Shown: positions 3,030 through 53,304 of the stretch, in pieces
Position numbering within the stretch: position 1 is the stretch's first letter
Layout: each line of letters starts with the position of its first letter
NCBI RefSeq assembly: GCF_030013205.1
Contig: NZ_CP122648.1
Length of the DNA stretch: 64,000 nt
Source of the DNA: Escherichia coli
GTDB taxonomy: Bacteria; Pseudomonadota; Gammaproteobacteria; Enterobacterales; Enterobacteriaceae
Direction: 5' to 3' (one strand)
Made by a program: the position numbers and the translations under genes
Notes under the pieces: generated by a model
Databases searched by the model: none
Told to the model about the DNA's origin: nothing
What the model saw: only the letters and a program-made list of their open reading frames with translations

Positions 3030-3135
3030 ATCCGGCAGCAATACTTCATTCCCTGTCCGGCACGGGCGGGAATTGATTTGTGAGCAATACAGACACGCAG
3101 TTCCAGGCTGCGGGTCACTACAGAGAATCCGGGTT

Positions 3136-4155
3136 ATGTTGCAGTTTATTCTCCGACGTTTGGGACTCGTCATCCCCACGTTTATCGGTATTACCCTTCT
3201 CACATTTGCCTTTGTCCACATGATCCCGGGCGATCCGGTGATGATCATGGCGGGCGAACGTGGGATCTCCCCAGAGCGTCACGCGCAGCTGCTGGCTGAA
3301 CTCGGCTTAGATAAACCGATGTGGCAGCAGTATCTCAATTACATTTGGAGCGTAATGCACGGCGATTTAGGCATTTCGATGAAAAGCCGCATCCCGGTTT
3401 GGGAAGAGTTCGTGCCGCGCTTTCAGGCCACGCTGGAGCTTGGTGTCTGCGCGATGATTTTTGCGACTGCGGTCGGTATTCCAGTCGGTGTGCTGGCTGC
3501 GGTTAAACGCGGTTCCATTTTCGATCACACGGCGGTTGGTCTGGCGCTGACCGGCTACTCGATGCCGATCTTCTGGTGGGGCATGATGCTGATCATGCTG
3601 GTTTCGGTGCACTGGAACCTGACGCCCGTCTCCGGTCGCGTGAGCGACATGGTGTTCCTCGATGATTCCAATCCGTTAACCGGTTTTATGCTAATCGACA
3701 CCGCCATCTGGGGTGAAGACGGTAACTTTATCGATGCCGTCGCCCATATGATCCTGCCCGCCATTGTGCTGGGTACTATCCCGCTGGCGGTCATTGTACG
3801 TATGACACGCTCCTCGATGCTGGAAGTGCTGGGTGAAGATTACATCCGCACCGCGCGCGCCAAAGGGTTGGCCCGCATGCGGGTGATTATCGTCCATGCT
3901 CTGCGTAACGCGATGCTGCCGGTAGTGACCGTTATCGGCCTGCAGGTGGGAACATTGCTGGCGGGGGCGATTCTGACCGAAACCATCTTCTCGTGGCCCG
4001 GTCTGGGGCGCTGGTTGATTGACGCACTGCAACGCCGCGACTATCCGGTAGTGCAGGGCGGCGTATTGCTGGTGGCGACGATGATTATCCTCGTCAACTT
4101 GCTGGTCGATCTGCTGTACGGCGTGGTGAACCCGCGTATTCGTCATAAGAAGTAA
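3136..4155 (+). CDS. dppB: dipeptide ABC transporter permease
   Basis: ORF 3073..4155; start taken at the internal ATG giving a 339-aa product beginning MLQFILRRLG. Confidence 0.9.
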   Translation: MLQFILRRLGLVIPTFIGITLLTFAFVHMIPGDPVMIMAGERGISPERHAQLLAELGLDKPMWQQYLNYIWSVMHGDLGISMKSRIPVWEEFVPRFQATLELGVCAMIFATAVGIPVGVLAAVKRGSIFDHTAVGLALTGYSMPIFWWGMMLIMLVSVHWNLTPVSGRVSDMVFLDDSNPLTGFMLIDTAIWGEDGNFIDAVAHMILPAIVLGTIPLAVIVRMTRSSMLEVLGEDYIRTARAKGLARMRVIIVHALRNAMLPVVTVIGLQVGTLLAGAILTETIFSWPGLGRWLIDALQRRDYPVVQGGVLLVATMIILVNLLVDLLYGVVNPRIRHKK

Positions 4156-30245: not shown

Positions 30246-30259
30246 TTGATTCCTATCAA
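30246..30259 (+). promoter_or_regulatory. FNR box (TTGAT-N4-ATCAA) upstream of ccp
   Basis: Perfect TTGATTCCTATCAA about 108 bp upstream of the ccp ATG; ccp is remembered as anaerobically (FNR/OxyR) activated. Confidence 0.55.
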
Positions 30260-47290: not shown

Positions 47291-48628
47291 TTATGGTTTT
47301 TCACGCACAATCGCTGGCGCATTAAGTACCTGAATTAGTTCATTAAGAGACTGCAAAATATTGCTTGCCCAGAAACGACCTTCATTAGTCAGCCGCAGGC
47401 AAGTTGAAGCATCGCGACTTAAGCCTTTTTGGTGCCATTGAGCCAGTAACGGCGCGAGTTTTTCGGCATGTGGCGTAAGTTCATCCAGCGGTACACGCGC
47501 TGTTTCAACACCTGACTGCAAGGTATGACGCCATTGCGCATCACGTTCGGCGTTACGCATGATCATCATCAGCGGTTTTTTGCCTGCCGCGACGGATTCA
47601 TGCCAGGTCTGAAGATTGCGTTCGTTCATCCAGGAGTAACCATTAATCGAACCGCCGGCTCCGGAACCAAAGGCCAGACAATCGGCACCTTGTTTAATCA
47701 GCAGGTTATAGAGATTGCGTTCGCGTGTGGTACGGCCCCAGTGGCTGTTACTGATGCAGCGCCAACCGGCTTCGTCCATGAAGTCACACCCTTGCAGATA
47801 AAGATCGCGACGTTCTGCCGGAGAGGGCACGGTAGTACGCCCATTTTCCACGGCTTTGCCCAGCGGTGTATTGGGCAGGACATTGAGCGCATAGAGATCG
47901 ACGCCGTCGAGACCGATATCGCGAGCAATAGCCAGATCTTCTCCCCAGGTTTGCGCATCCTGACCCGGCAGGCCAAACAGCAGGTCACAGACCACCGCTG
48001 CACGGTCGCGTTTGACCAGGCTTTCCATAAACGCAATGGCGGTTGGGCCATCCGAGGTGCGGGCCATTTTCTTGCGGATTTTGCTGTTAAACGACTGAAT
48101 ACCAATTGAGAAGCGGTTTGCTCCTGCATCAAGGCAAGCATCGATTCGCTCAGCGTCAAAATTCAGTACCCGGCCTTCGATAGTGATTTCACAATCAGGG
48201 GTCAGTGGCAGCTTTTCTCGTAATGTATTGATAATTCTGGCTAAATCGTGTGCAGAAAGCGCGGAAGGCGTGCCGCCACCGAAATAGACCGCGTGGATGG
48301 GGGCAGACTGATGCAATACGCTGTCCGCTTCCATTTCTATTTCACGAATCAGGGCGTCGGTATAATGAGCACACGCATCTTCATTAAAACGGTTCTGATA
48401 AAAACCACAAAACGTGCAGTGTGTCGCACAAAAAGGAATGTGTAGATAAACCAGTCGCTTACGTGGTGATACCGTTTGATTGATCATCTCTTGCCAGGTC
48501 TGTGCCAGTTGCTCTTTGGCAACCGGAATGGCTCCACGAAACGGCATCATGGCGCGCCTGTCTTTAAATGGCTGATCACCGTCTAAAGCAAAATGTGGCG
48601 TGAGATCCAGGGTGTTATTTGCGTTCAT
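47291..48628 (-). CDS. chuW: radical-SAM, HemN-like anaerobic haem-degrading enzyme
   Basis: 445 aa; radical-SAM cysteine motif CATHCTFC near the N-terminus. Confidence 0.8.
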   Translation of the reverse strand: MNANNTLDLTPHFALDGDQPFKDRRAMMPFRGAIPVAKEQLAQTWQEMINQTVSPRKRLVYLHIPFCATHCTFCGFYQNRFNEDACAHYTDALIREIEMEADSVLHQSAPIHAVYFGGGTPSALSAHDLARIINTLREKLPLTPDCEITIEGRVLNFDAERIDACLDAGANRFSIGIQSFNSKIRKKMARTSDGPTAIAFMESLVKRDRAAVVCDLLFGLPGQDAQTWGEDLAIARDIGLDGVDLYALNVLPNTPLGKAVENGRTTVPSPAERRDLYLQGCDFMDEAGWRCISNSHWGRTTRERNLYNLLIKQGADCLAFGSGAGGSINGYSWMNERNLQTWHESVAAGKKPLMMIMRNAERDAQWRHTLQSGVETARVPLDELTPHAEKLAPLLAQWHQKGLSRDASTCLRLTNEGRFWASNILQSLNELIQVLNAPAIVREKP

Positions 48629-48647: not shown

Positions 48648-49562
48648 TTATTGCGGCCAAAGCTGCTGGTGTAAAGACTCAACGACATCAGCAATACGCG
48701 GACCCATTCCCAGAATCAGGTTTTGATCAACGGTGATAATGCGCTGGTTTTTCCATGCGGCAGTGTGGGTAATTCCGGCAATAGAACGTAGCCGATTAAT
48801 ATCGCCATCGACCATTTGTGAGGTTACGACAATCACTTCTGGATTGGCCGCAATCAGTGATTCTGCACTGTAGCTTTTGTACTGCTGGTGGGTTGCGACG
48901 TTTTCTGCTCCGGCAAGCGAAAGAATGGCGTCCGCGACGCTGCCTTTACCGGCAACTTGTGGCGCACTTCCGCCTGCGGAGAGAATAAACATGGCTTTAA
49001 CCGGGGCTTTTTTGGCCGCCACGTTTTGCTGTACTCGCTCCAGGCGTTGGTTGATCTGTGTCACCAGCGCCTCGCCTTGTTCAGGAACCTGTAGCGTTTT
49101 TGCCAGTTGGCGAATGTTGGCGTACATCTGCTCAAGGGTGGCAGGCACACGCGGCAGGGTAACGACGTTGACTTTCTGCGCCCGTAGTTGGTCGAGCACA
49201 ATTTGCGGTCCAGCATCCTGCCAGGTAATTACGCTATCCGGGCGAAGTGACAAAATGCCTTCGCTGCTGAGTTGTTTCCAGTAGCCAATATGCGGCAGTT
49301 TGGCGGTTTCTGGTGGATAAGATGTCGTTTCATCGACACCAACCACGCGTTCGCCAGCGCCCATCGCGTAGATTAGCTCCGTCAGCGATCCTCCTGCGAC
49401 CACGATACGTTCGGCAGCCGTTACGCTAAAAGCCCAGCTAAGAGCCAGTACTGCCGTAAACAATTTTTTTCGTTTTACCGCGGTCTTCGCGGCAGAGGCC
49501 ACGGCTGAAATACATAACGTTAGTGGGGAAAAAAGAAACGGCCTGGTGATGATCCTTGGCAT
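48648..49562 (-). CDS. chuT: periplasmic haem-binding protein of the ABC system
   Basis: ORF 48648..49640; start placed at the ATG at 49562 (304 aa) because a Fur-box-like sequence at 49587-49606 would otherwise lie inside the coding region; start uncertain. Confidence 0.75.
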   Translation of the reverse strand: MPRIITRPFLFSPLTLCISAVASAAKTAVKRKKLFTAVLALSWAFSVTAAERIVVAGGSLTELIYAMGAGERVVGVDETTSYPPETAKLPHIGYWKQLSSEGILSLRPDSVITWQDAGPQIVLDQLRAQKVNVVTLPRVPATLEQMYANIRQLAKTLQVPEQGEALVTQINQRLERVQQNVAAKKAPVKAMFILSAGGSAPQVAGKGSVADAILSLAGAENVATHQQYKSYSAESLIAANPEVIVVTSQMVDGDINRLRSIAGITHTAAWKNQRIITVDQNLILGMGPRIADVVESLHQQLWPQ

Positions 49563-49586
49563 AATATGAGAACTCTTATCAAATTG

Positions 49587-49606
49587 AGAATGATCATGAT
49601 TATCAT
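49587..49606. promoter_or_regulatory. Fur box upstream of chuT (chuTWXYUV operon)
   Basis: GAATGATCATGATTATCATT resembles the Fur consensus GATAATGATAATCATTATC. Confidence 0.6.
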
Positions 49607-49935
49607 TTGGGTTATATATGAAATACAACCGTCGATTCAATACGTAAGGCGTTACAAGCGTATTTATTTTTGATTTTTATCAAGATGCTTCGTCAGCTAA
49701 CGTTCTTGTTACCGACTAAATTTCAGCGCGGGAAAAAGCTGAGAACCCAGAGATATCAAGGCTTGCAGAGCAAAGCGAAGAGAAAATTATCACTGTTAAC
49801 GACAAAGTTTAGTGATGAGGTCATGGGGGAATAACCATAAAAACAAAGTGGTTTCCAGGGCGCAGGATAAGTTTCATAACCCCCTGTTTATTGTGTTAAT
49901 GGCGGTTAAAAAAAGCTTGATCATAAAAAATTGAT

Positions 49936-49954
49936 CGATAATAATTCTCATTAT
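49936..49954. promoter_or_regulatory. Fur box in the chuT–chuA divergent region (candidate chuA promoter operator)
   Basis: GATAATAATTCTCATTATC, about 290 bp upstream of the chuA ATG. Confidence 0.6.
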
Positions 49955-50244
49955 CACGTTTGCGCTTAACAAAACACGACCATATGGATAACAAAACCAT
50001 AGCATTTGCAAGGGATAACGCACAGCGCTCTTCACTCCTGATGGGGCATATCGTTTTGCCTGACAAAGAGGGCGTGCTTTTGCGTATTTGCCGAGATACC
50101 AGGCAATTTCATGGGATATAAACGCCTGTAAACTCACCCGGCGAATATTATCGCTCTGAATTTTAAATAAATTTATTTTTCGCCAGCCACCCCGGTATTA
50201 ACCCAGGCAGCCAGCATTTTTTATTTTCCTCATGGAGAATCGCT

Positions 50245-52227
50245 ATGTCACGTCCGCAATTTACCTCGTTGCGTTTGAGTTTGTTGGCTTTGGCTGTTTC
50301 TGCCACCTTGCCAACGTTTGCTTTTGCTACTGAAACCATGACCGTTACGGCAACGGGGAATGCCCGTAGTTCCTTCGAAGCGCCTATGATGGTCAGCGTC
50401 ATCGACACTTCCGCTCCTGAAAATCAAACGGCTACTTCAGCCACCGATCTGCTGCGTCATGTTCCTGGAATTACTCTTGATGGTACCGGACGAACCAACG
50501 GTCAGGATGTAAATATGCGTGGCTATGATCATCGCGGCGTGCTGGTTCTTGTCGATGGTGTTCGCCAGGGAACGGATACCGGACACCTGAATGGTACTTT
50601 TCTTGATCCGGCGCTGATCAAGCGTGTTGAGATTGTTCGCGGACCTTCAGCATTACTGTATGGCAGTGGCGCGCTGGGTGGAGTGATCTCCTACGATACG
50701 GTCGATGCAAAAGATTTATTGCAGGAAGGACAAAGTAGTGGTTTTCGTGTCTTTGGTACTGGCGGCACGGGGGACCATAGCCTGGGATTAGGCGCGAGCG
50801 CGTTTGGGCGAACTGAAAATCTGGATGGTATTGTGGCCTGGTCCAGTCGCGATCGGGGTGATTTACGCCAGAGCAATGGTGAAACCGCGCCGAATGACGA
50901 GTCCATTAATAACATGCTGGCGAAAGGGACCTGGCAAATTGATTCAGCCCAGTCTCTGAGCGGTTTAGTGCGTTACTACAACAACGACGCGCGTGAACCA
51001 AAAAATCCGCAGACCGTTGAAGCTTCTGATAGCAGCAACCCGATGGTTGATCGTTCTACAATTCAACGCGATGCGCAGCTTTCTTATAAACTCGCCCCGC
51101 AGGGCAACGACTGGTTAAATGCAGATGCAAAAATTTACTGGTCGGAAGTCCGTATTAATGCGCAAAACACGGGGAGTTCCGGCGAGTATCGTGAACAGAT
51201 AACAAAAGGAGCAAGGCTGGAGAACCGTTCCACTCTATTTGCCGACAGTTTCGCTTCTCACTTACTGACATATGGCGGTGAGTATTATCGTCAGGAACAA
51301 CATCCGGGCGGCGCGACGACGGGCTTCCCGCAAGCAAAAATCGATTTTAGCTCTGGCTGGCTACAGGATGAGATCACCTTACGCGATCTGCCGATTACCC
51401 TGCTTGGCGGAACCCGCTATGACAGTTATCGCGGTAGCAGCGACGGCTACAAAGATGTTGATGCTGACAAATGGTCATCTCGTGCGGGGATGACTATCAA
51501 CCCGACCAACTGGCTGATGTTATTTGGCTCATATGCCCAGGCATTCCGCGCCCCGACGATGGGCGAAATGTATAACGATTCTAAGCACTTCTCGATTGGT
51601 CGCTTCTATACCAACTATTGGGTGCCAAACCCGAACTTACGTCCGGAAACTAACGAAACTCAGGAGTACGGTTTTGGGCTGCGTTTTGATGACCTGATGT
51701 TGTCCAATGATGCCCTGGAATTTAAAGCCAGCTACTTTGATACCAAAGCGAAGGATTACATCTCCACGACCGTCGATTTCGCGGCGGCGACGACTATGTC
51801 GTATAACGTCCCGAACGCCAAAATCTGGGGCTGGGATGTGATGACGAAATATACCACTGATCTGTTTAGCCTTGATGTGGCCTATAACCGAACCCGCGGC
51901 AAAGACACCGATACCGGCGAATATATCTCCAGTATTAACCCGGATACCGTTACCAGTACCCTGAATATTCCGATCGCTCATAGTGGCTTCTCTGTTGGTT
52001 GGGTCGGTACGTTTGCCGATCGCTCAACACATATCAGCAGCAGCTACAGCAAACAACCTGGCTATGGCGTGAATGATTTCTACGTCAGTTATCAAGGACA
52101 ACAGGCGCTCAAAGGCATGACCACTACTTTGGTGTTGGGTAACGCTTTCGACAAAGAGTACTGGTCGCCACAAGGCATCCCACAGGATGGTCGTAATGGA
52201 AAAATTTTCGTGAGTTATCAATGGTAA
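50245..52227 (+). CDS. chuA: TonB-dependent outer-membrane haem/haemoglobin receptor
   Basis: 660 aa; signal peptide; TonB-dependent receptor architecture; C-terminal aromatic residue (...SYQW). Confidence 0.9.
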   Translation: MSRPQFTSLRLSLLALAVSATLPTFAFATETMTVTATGNARSSFEAPMMVSVIDTSAPENQTATSATDLLRHVPGITLDGTGRTNGQDVNMRGYDHRGVLVLVDGVRQGTDTGHLNGTFLDPALIKRVEIVRGPSALLYGSGALGGVISYDTVDAKDLLQEGQSSGFRVFGTGGTGDHSLGLGASAFGRTENLDGIVAWSSRDRGDLRQSNGETAPNDESINNMLAKGTWQIDSAQSLSGLVRYYNNDAREPKNPQTVEASDSSNPMVDRSTIQRDAQLSYKLAPQGNDWLNADAKIYWSEVRINAQNTGSSGEYREQITKGARLENRSTLFADSFASHLLTYGGEYYRQEQHPGGATTGFPQAKIDFSSGWLQDEITLRDLPITLLGGTRYDSYRGSSDGYKDVDADKWSSRAGMTINPTNWLMLFGSYAQAFRAPTMGEMYNDSKHFSIGRFYTNYWVPNPNLRPETNETQEYGFGLRFDDLMLSNDALEFKASYFDTKAKDYISTTVDFAAATTMSYNVPNAKIWGWDVMTKYTTDLFSLDVAYNRTRGKDTDTGEYISSINPDTVTSTLNIPIAHSGFSVGWVGTFADRSTHISSSYSKQPGYGVNDFYVSYQGQQALKGMTTTLVLGNAFDKEYWSPQGIPQDGRNGKIFVSYQW

Positions 52228-52275
52228 TCATCTGCCCCGATATTTCGGGGCATTTATCTGGAAGGAAGAGAGACA

Positions 52276-53304
52276 ATGAACCACTACACACGCTGGCTTG
52301 AGTTAAAAGAACAAAATCCCGGAAAGTACGCGCGTGACATCGCAGGTTTAATGAATATTAGCGAAGCAGAACTGGCATTTGCGCGCGTCACGCACGATGC
52401 GTGGCGGATGTGCGGCGATATCCGTGACATTCTGGCGGCGCTCGAAAGTGTTGGCGAGACCAAATGTATTTGTCGTAATGAATATGCAGTCCATGAGCAA
52501 GTTGGTGCGTTCACAAACCAGCATTTGAACGGACATGCCGGATTGATCCTCAATCCGCGCGCGCTGGATTTGCGTCTGTTTCTCAATCAATGGGCCAGTG
52601 TTTTTCACATTAAAGAAAATACGACTCGTGGCGAACGCCAGAGTATTCAGTTCTTTGATCATCAGGGCGATGCATTACTAAAAGTTTATGCCACCGACAA
52701 TACCGATATGGCGGCATGGAGTGAGCTTCTGGCACGGTTTATCACCGATGAGAATACGTCGCTTGAGTTAAAAGCCGTTGATGCGCCAGTTGTTCAAACG
52801 CGAGCCGATGCCAGTGTGGTCGAGCAAGAGTGGCGGGCGATGACCGACGTTCATCAGTTTTTTACGTTGCTCAAGCGCCACAACCTGACGCGCCAACAGG
52901 CGTTCAATCTGGTGGCAGATGATTTGGCCTGCAAAGTATCCAACAGTGCGTTGGCGCAAATTCTTGAATCTGCACAGCAGGATGGCAATGAAATCATGGT
53001 GTTTGTTGGCAACCGTGGCTGCGTACAGATTTTCACCGGTGTGGTAGAAAAAGTGGTGCCAATGAAAGGTTGGCTGAATATTTTTAACCCGACGTTTACT
53101 CTTCATCTATTAGAAGAGAGCATTGCTGAAACCTGGGTAACCCGTAAACCTGCTAGTGACGGTTATGTGACCAGTCTGGAATTGTTTGCCCATGATGGTA
53201 CGCAGATAGCGCAACTTTATGGTCAACGTACAGAAGGCGAACAGGAGCAAGCGCAATGGCGTAAGCAAATTGCTTCGCTGATACCGGAAGGCGTTACTGC
53301 ATAA
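52276..53304 (+). CDS. chuS: cytoplasmic haem-degrading / haem-trafficking protein
   Basis: 342-aa ORF immediately downstream of chuA. Confidence 0.85.
   Translation: MNHYTRWLELKEQNPGKYARDIAGLMNISEAELAFARVTHDAWRMCGDIRDILAALESVGETKCICRNEYAVHEQVGAFTNQHLNGHAGLILNPRALDLRLFLNQWASVFHIKENTTRGERQSIQFFDHQGDALLKVYATDNTDMAAWSELLARFITDENTSLELKAVDAPVVQTRADASVVEQEWRAMTDVHQFFTLLKRHNLTRQQAFNLVADDLACKVSNSALAQILESAQQDGNEIMVFVGNRGCVQIFTGVVEKVVPMKGWLNIFNPTFTLHLLEESIAETWVTRKPASDGYVTSLELFAHDGTQIAQLYGQRTEGEQEQAQWRKQIASLIPEGVTA

What the first reader, a model, noticed from the sequence alone, without database searches (positions are those of the whole stretch)
49587..49954. Two Fur-box-like operators in the chuT–chuA divergent region; one argues for a shorter chuT start
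GAATGATCATGATTATCATT (49587-49606) and GATAATAATTCTCATTATC (49936-49954) both resemble the Fur consensus. The first lies inside the longest chuT ORF (start 49640) but just upstream of the ATG at 49562, which supports the shorter 304-aa ChuT and a Fur-repressed promoter overlapping that site. The second sits about 290 bp upstream of chuA, implying a long 5' UTR.
Basis: partly seen in the sequence, partly recalled or inferred. Interest (0 to 1): 0.45.

Follow-up and report, generated by a model that had tools for sequence, protein, structure and literature searches.

The report
Known Fur operators of chuT and chuA
The two iron-repressor (Fur) binding sites between the haem-uptake genes chuT and chuA of pathogenic E. 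coli are real, but they, the short chuT start and the long chuA leader are already published and annotated, so the finding is correct and ordinary.

Summary
As 19-mers they are 49586-49604 (3 mismatches to the consensus) and 49937-49955 (2 mismatches). Apart from an overlapping second register of box 1, nothing else in the 64 kb has 4 or fewer mismatches (0.01 sites with 3 or fewer expected by chance). Both boxes are essentially invariant across six diverged Escherichia alleles, while the spacer between them is only 36% invariant.

All three interpretations are already published. The window's 45 nt are identical to the S. dysenteriae shuT leader, for which 5'-RACE put the start site 42 nt before the ATG. 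That makes the Fur box +1 to +19, the start site 49604 and the ATG 49562. RefSeq annotates the 304-aa protein. The TTG at 49640 lies upstream of the transcript, in the likely -35 hexamer. EHEC dRNA-seq gives chuA a 291-nt leader starting at about 49954, inside box 2.

Two things may be new:
- The chuT promoter, Fur box, leader, ATG and first 25 codons descend from a different TonB receptor gene that precedes chuT in other genera. ChuT therefore carries two signal peptides in tandem.
- A perfect FNR-type box at 49670-49683 (-72.5) is conserved in 32 of 33 loci.

The parts
49586..49604 (-). Fur box 1 (GATAATCATGATCATTCTC on the minus strand), spanning +1 to +19 of the chuT transcript
   Evidence: It has 3 mismatches to the consensus. 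It is identical to the experimentally tested shuT box. It is 95% invariant in six Escherichia alleles. It is homologous to the Fur box in front of the receptor gene in other genera.
49592..49610 (.). Second Fur register overlapping box 1 with a 6-bp shift (4 mismatches), extending the operator to about 25 bp
   Evidence: That it binds a second Fur dimer is inferred.
49604..49604 (-). chuT transcription start site
   Evidence: Transferred from S. dysenteriae 5'-RACE, which placed it 42 nt upstream of the ATG. The transfer rests on an identical 45-nt sequence.
49611..49640 (-). chuT promoter: -35 TTGAAT (49640-49635), 18-bp spacer, -10 TATAAC (49616-49611). The TTG of the 330-aa ORF is the first three bases of the -35.
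   Evidence: The hexamers were read from the sequence relative to the published start site, so their assignment is inferred. A 62-nt fragment ending at -1 has promoter activity. The -10 TATATAA is conserved across genera.
49563..49604 (-). 42-nt chuT 5' UTR, published as a single-hairpin RNA thermometer that hides the Shine-Dalgarno sequence
   Evidence: It is identical to the shuT UTR and its function is published. The predicted fold is one hairpin pairing UUCUC with AAGAG. The fold energy is not distinguishable from shuffles (z 0.14).
48648..49562 (-). chuT/shuT coding sequence, 304-aa form (periplasmic haem-binding protein)
   Evidence: RefSeq annotation. The ShuT crystal construct 2R7A matches residues 75-330 of the long ORF, which are residues 49-304 of this form.
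49488..49562 (-). chuT codons 1-25 (MPRIITRPFLFSPLTLCISAVASAA): the retained signal peptide of a receptor gene that is no longer there
   Evidence: It is homologous to the N-terminus of the roughly 710-aa TonB receptor that precedes chuT in Citrobacter and other genera (MLPRINNRPFFLSALTLCVSGAVSAA). BLASTN gives E values from 9e-16 to 1e-7, and the homology ends at 49489. pN/pS is 0.5-0.9, against 0.02-0.07 for mature ChuT.
49413..49469 (-). ChuT's own ancestral signal peptide (KKLFTAVLALSWAFSVTAA). Its ATG was lost through a 9-bp deletion.
   Evidence: Homologues in other genera start MKK(L/I). E. albertii, E69 and SCPM alleles keep ..MKKLF.. while the window, O157 and B2 alleles lack those 9 bp. 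The presequence has a second hydrophobic peak.
49670..49683 (.). Perfect FNR-type box TTGATTTTTATCAA, centred at -72.5 from the chuT start site (candidate, not tested)
   Evidence: There are 2 perfect matches in the window against 0.12 expected. It is 100% invariant in six alleles. Exactly one TTGAY-N4-ATCAA occurs per locus in 32 of 33 loci, always 63.5-73.5 bp upstream of the Fur-like site.
49917..49945 (+). chuA promoter: -35 TTGATC (49917-49922), 17-bp spacer, -10 AATAAT (49940-49945)
   Evidence: Consensus scan. It fits the published start site. It is 85-100% invariant. The hexamer assignment is inferred.
49937..49955 (+). Fur box 2 (GATAATAATTCTCATTATC), covering the -10 hexamer to +2 of the chuA promoter
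   Evidence: It has 2 mismatches. It is 100% invariant in six alleles, within a 22-bp invariant run at 49935-49956. Fur control of chuA/shuA is published.
49954..50244 (+). chuA 5' UTR, 291 nt (start site about 49954, give or take 1-2 nt)
   Evidence: EHEC dRNA-seq gives a 291-nt UTR. There are no indels between the window and O157 in this stretch. RT-PCR brackets the shuA UTR at 278-342 nt.
50216..50247 (+). FourU RNA thermometer of chuA/shuA
   Evidence: Rfam RF02597 shuA_thermo, 60.1 bits against a gathering score of 58, E 1.3e-08. It lies within a 52-bp invariant run.
50245..52227 (+). chuA coding sequence (TonB-dependent haem receptor)
   Evidence: ORF, RefSeq annotation, and TIGR01785 at 588 bits.

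Best explanation
The window holds the chu/shu haem-uptake locus of E. coli. The 682-bp region between chuT and chuA contains two separate Fur-repressed sigma-70 promoters facing outward. Their start sites lie about 350 bp apart.

On the chuT side, transcription starts at 49604 (minus strand). Fur box 1 occupies +1 to +19, and an overlapping second register reaches -6. Iron-loaded Fur bound there blocks initiation or promoter escape. The 42-nt leader folds into a hairpin that hides the ribosome-binding site at low temperature. Translation starts at the ATG at 49562 and gives the 304-aa ChuT. The TTG at 49640 is not in the mRNA and appears to be part of the -35 hexamer.

On the chuA side, Fur box 2 covers the -10 hexamer and the start site (about 49954), which is classic promoter occlusion. 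The mRNA carries a 291-nt leader that ends in the FourU thermometer at 50216-50247.

Shown by published experiments on identical or near-identical sequence: both start sites, Fur dependence, Fur binding to box 1, and both thermometers. Inferred here: the exact promoter hexamers and the second Fur register. Also inferred here is the origin of the whole chuT 5' end. Its FNR-type box, promoter, Fur box, leader, ATG and 25 codons appear to descend from a different receptor gene that heads the operon in other Enterobacterales.
For: - Fur consensus matches are the only ones in 64 kb with 4 or fewer mismatches, against 0.01 (3 or fewer mismatches) expected by chance.
- The window sequence 49604->49560 is identical to the shuT 5'-UTR oligonucleotide of Wei et al. 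2017.
- For that sequence, 5'-RACE, RT-PCR walking, promoter fusion, EMSA and a 5-nt deletion of the box are all reported.
- RefSeq starts chuT/shuT at window 49562 in three allele groups.
- The chuA leader is 291 nt by dRNA-seq and 278-342 nt by RT-PCR.
- Rfam shuA_thermo scores above its gathering score.
- Fur ChIP-seq in CFT073 lists both operons as direct targets.
- In six alleles, Fur box 1 is 95% invariant and Fur box 2 is 100% invariant, against 36% for the spacer.
- Cross-genus homology of the chuT 5' end to the receptor gene's 5' end has BLASTN E values down to 9e-16.
Against: - None of the experiments was done on this strain. Transfer rests on sequence identity (chuT side) or 97% identity (chuA side, O157).
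- The 5'-RACE was not reported as discriminating primary from processed 5' ends. The promoter-fragment activity supports a true start.
- The chuA start site falls on a T (49954), which is unusual and may be off by 1-2 nt.
- The N-terminal 28 codons of the 304-aa ChuT evolve almost neutrally.
- Homologues in other genera start about 30 codons further in. Translation from 49562 in the native gene has therefore not been proven at the protein level.
- The predicted leader hairpin is no more stable than shuffled sequence.
Confidence: 0.93

Rival explanations
1. ChuT translation really begins downstream of 49562, for example at the GTG at 49502 or the TTG at 49463, or in B2 strains at the new ATG before VKRKK. 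Codons 1-28 would then be mostly untranslated leader.
For: - Codons 2-28 have pN/pS of 0.5-0.9, against 0.02-0.07 in the mature protein.
- All homologues outside Escherichia start at MKK(L/I) with a 20-22-aa signal peptide.
- E. albertii, E69 and SCPM alleles still carry that ATG, and the B2 allele has gained an ATG at nearly the same place.
- A 50-aa presequence with two hydrophobic peaks is unusual.
Against: - In the window allele the ancestral ATG has been deleted. The remaining GTG and TTG have no purine-rich ribosome-binding site.
- The ATG at 49562, its ribosome-binding site and the first four codons are conserved in all six alleles. They descend from a genuine start codon of the receptor gene.
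- The 42-nt leader placed before gfp gives temperature-dependent translation.
- The frame stays open with no frameshifting indel in all alleles.
- RefSeq uses 49562.
Confidence: 0.1
2. The 330-aa ORF from the TTG at 49640 is the real chuT. Box 1 would then be an intragenic Fur site or a chance match.
For: It is the longest ORF.
Against: - The mapped start site is 36 nt downstream of that TTG, and RT-PCR primers further upstream gave no product.
- Both substitutions seen between the TTG and the ATG in three alleles change the amino acid in that frame.
- Fur boxes and promoter elements homologous to this stretch lie in non-coding DNA in other genera.
- RefSeq does not use it.
Confidence: 0.02
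3. The two matches are chance AT-rich palindromes in an AT-rich intergenic region and have no regulatory role.
For: Intergenic DNA is AT-rich, and a consensus match alone does not prove function.
Against: - 0.01 sites are expected by chance.
- The boxes are invariant while the neighbouring spacer is 36% invariant.
- Published EMSA, deletion analysis and ChIP-seq all show function.
Confidence: 0.01

Closest known systems
shuT promoter, Fur box and RNA thermometer of Shigella dysenteriae (Wei, Kouse and Murphy 2017, PMC5458455)
   Same: The 42-nt leader plus ATG is identical base for base. The Fur box has 3 mismatches at +1 to +19, and the geometry to the start codon is the same.
   Different: The host is an E. 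coli strain. The window's 951-bp query spanning the intergenic region is 100% identical to swine isolate K_EC180. Nothing differs in the element itself.
chuA/shuA Fur-repressed promoter with a 291-nt leader and FourU thermometer (Kouse 2013, PMC3660397; Sy and Tree 2022, PMC9002310; Rfam RF02597)
   Same: The Fur box sits over the -10 hexamer and start site. The leader is about 291 nt. The FourU element matches Rfam above its threshold.
   Different: The window allele is about 97% identical to O157:H7 across the region. The differences lie in the middle of the leader, not in the box or the thermometer.
Receptor-chuT-chuW-chuX-chuY operons of Citrobacter, Kluyvera, Enterobacter, Intestinirhabdus, Providencia and Proteus (loci L009-L037)
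   Same: The 5' control region has the same parts in the same order: FNR-type box, -10 TATATAA, Fur box, ribosome-binding site, ATG and signal-peptide codons.
   Different: There, the region drives a roughly 710-aa TonB receptor that is only about 30% identical to ChuA over the plug domain. In Escherichia that receptor's body is gone, its first 25 codons are fused to chuT, and chuA-chuS sits on the opposite strand with its own Fur box.
FNR-dependent promoters with an upstream (class I type) site
   Same: The site is a perfect TTGAT-N4-ATCAA consensus. The only other perfect match in the window lies in front of ccp/yhjA, which from my own knowledge is an FNR-activated gene.
   Different: The centre is at -72.5 rather than the canonical -71.5 (positions recalled from my own knowledge). 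No binding or expression data exist for this site. The one FNR study of chuA names a different, weak site.

Membership tests
E. coli Fur operator (Fur box) | Close match to the 19-bp inverted-repeat consensus GATAATGATAATCATTATC | tested here: met
   16 of 19 and 17 of 19 positions match. These are the only such sites in 64 kb, with 0.01 expected by chance.
E. coli Fur operator (Fur box) | Overlaps the promoter or transcription start of an iron-acquisition gene | tested here: met
   Box 1 spans +1 to +19 of chuT. Box 2 spans about -17 to +2 of chuA. Both positions use published start sites mapped onto the window.
E. coli Fur operator (Fur box) | Binds Fur and confers iron-dependent repression | not testable with these tools
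   For box 1, EMSA and deletion analysis on identical sequence are published. For both operons, ChIP-seq in CFT073 is published.
E. coli Fur operator (Fur box) | Conserved relative to flanking non-coding DNA | tested here: met
   The boxes are 95% and 100% invariant, against 36% in the spacer. Box 1 is also conserved across genera.
shuA_thermo FourU thermometer (Rfam RF02597) | Covariance-model score at or above the gathering score, located at the ribosome-binding site of chuA/shuA | tested here: met
   60.1 bits against a gathering score of 58, at 50216-50247, ending in the ATG.
shuT RNA thermometer | Single hairpin in the 42-nt leader that pairs with the Shine-Dalgarno sequence | tested here: met
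   The sequence is identical to the characterised element. The minimum-free-energy fold is one hairpin pairing UUCUC with AAGAG. The energy is not better than shuffles, so the fold alone would not have identified it.
FNR binding site | TTGAT-N4-ATCAA inverted repeat | tested here: met
   A perfect match at 49670-49683, conserved in 32 of 33 loci.
FNR binding site | Position compatible with activation (near -41.5, or upstream at -61.5, -71.5 and so on) | tested here: inconclusive
   The centre is at -72.5 from the transferred start site, one base off. No -10-like hexamer fits a -41.5 arrangement (read).
FNR binding site | FNR binding and oxygen-dependent expression | not testable with these tools
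   The only indirect evidence is that an fnr mutant of APEC O1 lowers chuA-lacZ and FNR shifts a chuA promoter fragment of unstated extent.
Sec signal peptide (ChuT presequence) | Basic n-region, hydrophobic core and small residues at -3/-1 just before the mature protein | tested here: met
   KRKK-LFTAVLALSWAF-SVTAA lies directly before ERIV. The crystal construct starts at AAERIV. The unusual point is a second, upstream signal-like segment.

The most novel reading that the evidence does not exclude
The chuT control region is the surviving 5' end of a different haem-receptor gene that heads this operon in other Enterobacterales. In Escherichia the receptor body was lost and its promoter, Fur box, leader, ATG and signal peptide were fused in frame to chuT. 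E. coli proper then deleted chuT's own ATG. ChuT is therefore made with two signal peptides in tandem.

The same inherited module carries a perfect FNR site at -72.5. That would make chuTWXYUV, which includes the oxygen-sensitive anaerobic haem-degrading ChuW, depend on both low iron and low oxygen. chuAS would depend on iron only.
Probability: 0.5. Interest if true: 0.4.

Novelty: already known. Interest (0 to 1): 0.15.

Why it matters
As stated, the finding adds nothing new. Both Fur boxes, the chuT start and the long chuA leader are published and already reflected in RefSeq. Its value is as a check that a reader working from sequence alone recovered real regulatory sites and the correct start codon.

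The by-products are modestly useful. They explain why ChuT/ShuT carries an odd 50-residue presequence. They show that its Fur box and thermometer were inherited from another gene. They also point to a testable oxygen input through FNR for the operon that encodes anaerobic haem degradation in pathogenic E. coli and Shigella.

Tried and rejected
- The simple promoter scan proposed TTCTCA-18-TATTAT (49590->49561) for chuT. I rejected it because it would start transcription downstream of the ATG and conflicts with the published 5'-RACE.
- The 328-nt chuA leader predicted in 1998 is superseded by the 291 nt from dRNA-seq.
- I looked for an RfaH ops element (GGCGGTAGnnTG), prompted by my recollection that the Nagy et al. 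2001 paper cited links chuA expression to RfaH. The best match from 49600 to 52300 has 3 mismatches and lies inside the CDS. The GGCGGTT at 49902 is upstream of the start site, so there is no support.
- An Rfam hit to hammerhead HH9 inside chuT scored 20 bits against 52 needed and is chance.
- Fold z-scores for the chuT leader are not significant, so structure prediction alone is uninformative here.
- An FNR class II (-41.5) reading of the 49670 box was rejected because no -10-like hexamer sits at the required place in any genus.
- Literature searches for a described FNR site on the chuT side found none.
- I looked for alleles that retain the ancestral chuT ATG among complete RefSeq E. coli genomes. 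None is more than 95% identical to the E69 allele, and the best full-length matches (89.7% identical) span about 10 nt less than the query, consistent with the deletion.
- The 54-aa ORF at 49670-49834 lies in the least conserved stretch and was judged spurious.

Full report
**What is in the window.** The region is the chu/shu haem-uptake locus of E. coli.
- chuW lies at 47291-48628 (minus strand).
- The longest chuT ORF lies at 48648-49640 (minus strand).
- chuA lies at 50245-52227 (plus strand) and chuS at 52276-53304 (plus strand).
- A 951-bp query across the intergenic region (49350-50300) is 100% identical to swine isolate K_EC180. The locus is present in 2236 of 5426 complete E. coli genomes.
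- The annotated gene order is chuV-chuU-chuY-chuX-chuW-chuT, then chuA-chuS on the opposite strand.

**Checking the observation.** Both quoted strings exist but sit one base to the right of the stated coordinates, at 49588-49607 and 49937-49955.
- Against the 19-bp Fur consensus, the best registers are 49586-49604 (3 mismatches) and 49937-49955 (2 mismatches).
- A second register at 49592-49610 (4 mismatches) overlaps box 1.
- Nothing else in the 64 kb has 4 or fewer mismatches. Shuffles predict 0.01 sites with 3 or fewer.
- I aligned six diverged Escherichia alleles: the window, O157:H7, a B2 strain, E. coli E69, E. albertii and E. coli SCPM-O-B-8794.
- In that alignment box 1 is 95% invariant and box 2 is 100% invariant. 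The spacer at 49704-49877 is 36% invariant.

**The chuT side.** Wei, Kouse and Murphy 2017 (PMC5458455) studied S. dysenteriae shuT.
- They mapped the transcription start by RT-PCR walking and 5'-RACE to 42 nt upstream of the ATG.
- They showed promoter activity in the 62 nt ending at -1.
- They found a Fur box with 3 mismatches at +1 to +19. Fur bound it specifically in EMSA, and deleting its first 5 nt abolished iron regulation.
- They showed that the 42-nt leader is an RNA thermometer.
- Their oligonucleotide for the full leader, GATAATCATGATCATTCTCAATTTGATAAGAGTTCTCATATTATG, is identical to window 49604->49560.
- In window coordinates, the start site is therefore 49604, box 1 is +1 to +19, and the start codon is the ATG at 49562.
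- The TTG at 49640 lies 36 nt upstream of the transcript. Read from the sequence, it forms the first three bases of a TTGAAT -35 hexamer, followed by an 18-bp spacer and a TATAAC -10 hexamer. That hexamer assignment is my inference.
- RefSeq annotates the 304-aa protein starting at 49562 in all three allele groups I checked.
- The 45-nt leader folds into one hairpin pairing UUCUC with the AAGAG Shine-Dalgarno sequence. Its energy is no better than shuffled sequence.

**The chuA side.**
- A consensus scan finds TTGATC-17-AATAAT at 49917-49945.
- Sy and Tree 2022 (PMC9002310) report a 291-nt chuA 5' UTR from dRNA-seq in EHEC Sakai.
- The window and O157 have no indels in that stretch, so the start site is at about 49954. 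That lies inside the 3' end of box 2, which therefore covers the -10 hexamer and the start.
- Kouse et al. 2013 bracketed the shuA leader at 278-342 nt and characterised the FourU thermometer. Rfam finds it at 50216-50247 above the gathering score.
- Fur ChIP-seq in CFT073 lists chuAS and chuTWXYU as direct targets.

**Origin of the chuT 5' end.** I fetched 33 loci encoding ChuT relatives from other genomes.
- Outside Escherichia, the homologue always starts MKK(L/I) with a 20-22-residue signal peptide.
- It is directly preceded, on the same strand, by a roughly 710-aa TonB receptor gene with a Fur-like box in front of it.
- That receptor is only about 30% identical to ChuA over the plug domain. 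Its best NCBIfam match is the haem-receptor subfamily, but below the curated cut-off.
- The Escherichia chuT upstream region aligns with the 5' region of that receptor gene. The aligned parts are the FNR-type box, the -10 TATATAA, the Fur box, the ribosome-binding site, the ATG and the signal-peptide codons.
- The Citrobacter receptor begins MLPRINNRPFFLSALTLCVSGAVSAA. ChuT begins MPRIITRPFLFSPLTLCISAVASAA.
- BLASTN of window 49700->49470 against these loci hits only that place, with E values from 9e-16 to 1e-7. The homology ends at 49489, the end of codon 25.
- I conclude that the receptor body was lost in the Escherichia lineage and its 5' end became fused in frame to chuT. chuA-chuS sits on the other strand with its own promoter and Fur box.

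**The lost ancestral start codon.**
- E. albertii, E69 and SCPM alleles still carry chuT's ancestral ATG (..MKKLF..).
- The window, O157 and B2 alleles lack 9 bp that included it. The B2 allele has a new ATG two codons upstream of the gap.
- Codons 2-28 evolve with pN/pS of about 0.5-0.9, against 0.02-0.07 for the mature protein.
- The presequence shows two equal hydrophobic peaks separated by KTAVKRKK.
- This supports 49562 as the start in this allele, because no other ATG is left. It also explains the odd 50-residue presequence.
- It leaves a small chance (about 0.1) that initiation occurs further in.

**A candidate FNR site.**
- TTGATTTTTATCAA at 49670-49683 is a perfect FNR consensus.
- Only two perfect matches occur in the window, against 0.12 expected.
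- The other lies between treF and ccp/yhjA. From my own knowledge, ccp/yhjA is an FNR-activated gene.
- The site is invariant in the six alleles.
- A single TTGAY-N4-ATCAA occurs per locus in 32 of 33 loci, from Proteus to Escherichia, always 63.5-73.5 bp upstream of the Fur-like site.
- Its centre is at -72.5 from the chuT start site.
- The operon encodes ChuW, annotated as the radical-SAM enzyme of anaerobic haem degradation, so an oxygen input would make sense.
- I found no paper describing this site. One APEC study reports FNR-dependent chuA expression but names a different, weak site.
- This is a lead, not a result.

**Verdict.** The novelty class is "already known". Interest in the finding as given is low. 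The inherited signal peptide and the conserved FNR-plus-Fur module are the only parts that may be new.

Noticed in passing
window 49670-49683: A perfect FNR consensus, TTGATTTTTATCAA, lies 72.5 bp upstream of the chuT start site. It is invariant in six Escherichia alleles. A TTGAY-N4-ATCAA box occurs once per locus in 32 of 33 related loci, always just upstream of the Fur box. I found no paper that describes it.
   Followed up: partly
window 49488-49562 (minus strand): ChuT residues 1-25 are homologous to the signal peptide of a different TonB receptor that precedes chuT in Citrobacter, Kluyvera, Enterobacter and other genera. The promoter, Fur box, leader and ATG came with it. ChuT therefore has two signal-peptide-like segments in tandem.
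   Followed up: yes
window about 49469-49470 (minus strand); L006-L008 about 3094-3102: A 9-bp deletion in the window, O157 and B2 alleles removed chuT's ancestral ATG (..MKKLF..). E. albertii, E. coli E69 and SCPM-O-B-8794 still have it. The B2 allele carries a new in-frame ATG (TMVKRKK) two codons upstream of the gap.
   Followed up: partly
window 49877-49916: A conserved block, TAACCCCCTGTTTATTGTGTTAATGGCGGTTAAAAAAAG, is 82% invariant and lies just upstream of the chuA -35 hexamer, at about -77 to -38. It could be an UP element or an activator site. It remains unexplained.
   Followed up: no
window 49684-49703: A second conserved stretch (GATGCTTCGTCAGCTAAC, 70% invariant with a 12-bp invariant run) adjoins the FNR-type box on the chuA side. 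It is Escherichia-specific and has no assigned function.
   Followed up: no
window 30246-30259: The only other perfect FNR consensus in the window, TTGATTCCTATCAA, lies between treF and ccp/yhjA, about 110 bp before ccp.
   Followed up: partly
window 4077-4095: The next-best Fur-like 19-mer in the window is GACGATGATTATCCTCGTC, with 5 mismatches. Its context was not examined.
   Followed up: no
L004 3626-4920 (E. coli WP4-S17-ESBL-03): In this strain an IS26 follows the chuT-side half of the intergenic region. chuA and the genes up to a truncated rlmJ are missing, so the strain keeps chuT-W-X-Y without the receptor.
   Followed up: no
L005 (contig JAIJJM010000641.1): A 1.9-kb contig binned as a Collinsella MAG encodes a ChuT 100% identical to the window's. 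This is most likely a mis-binned E. coli contig.
   Followed up: no
window 49670-49834 (plus strand): A 54-aa ORF starts at the TTG of the FNR-type box and lies in the least conserved part of the spacer. It is probably not a gene.
   Followed up: partly
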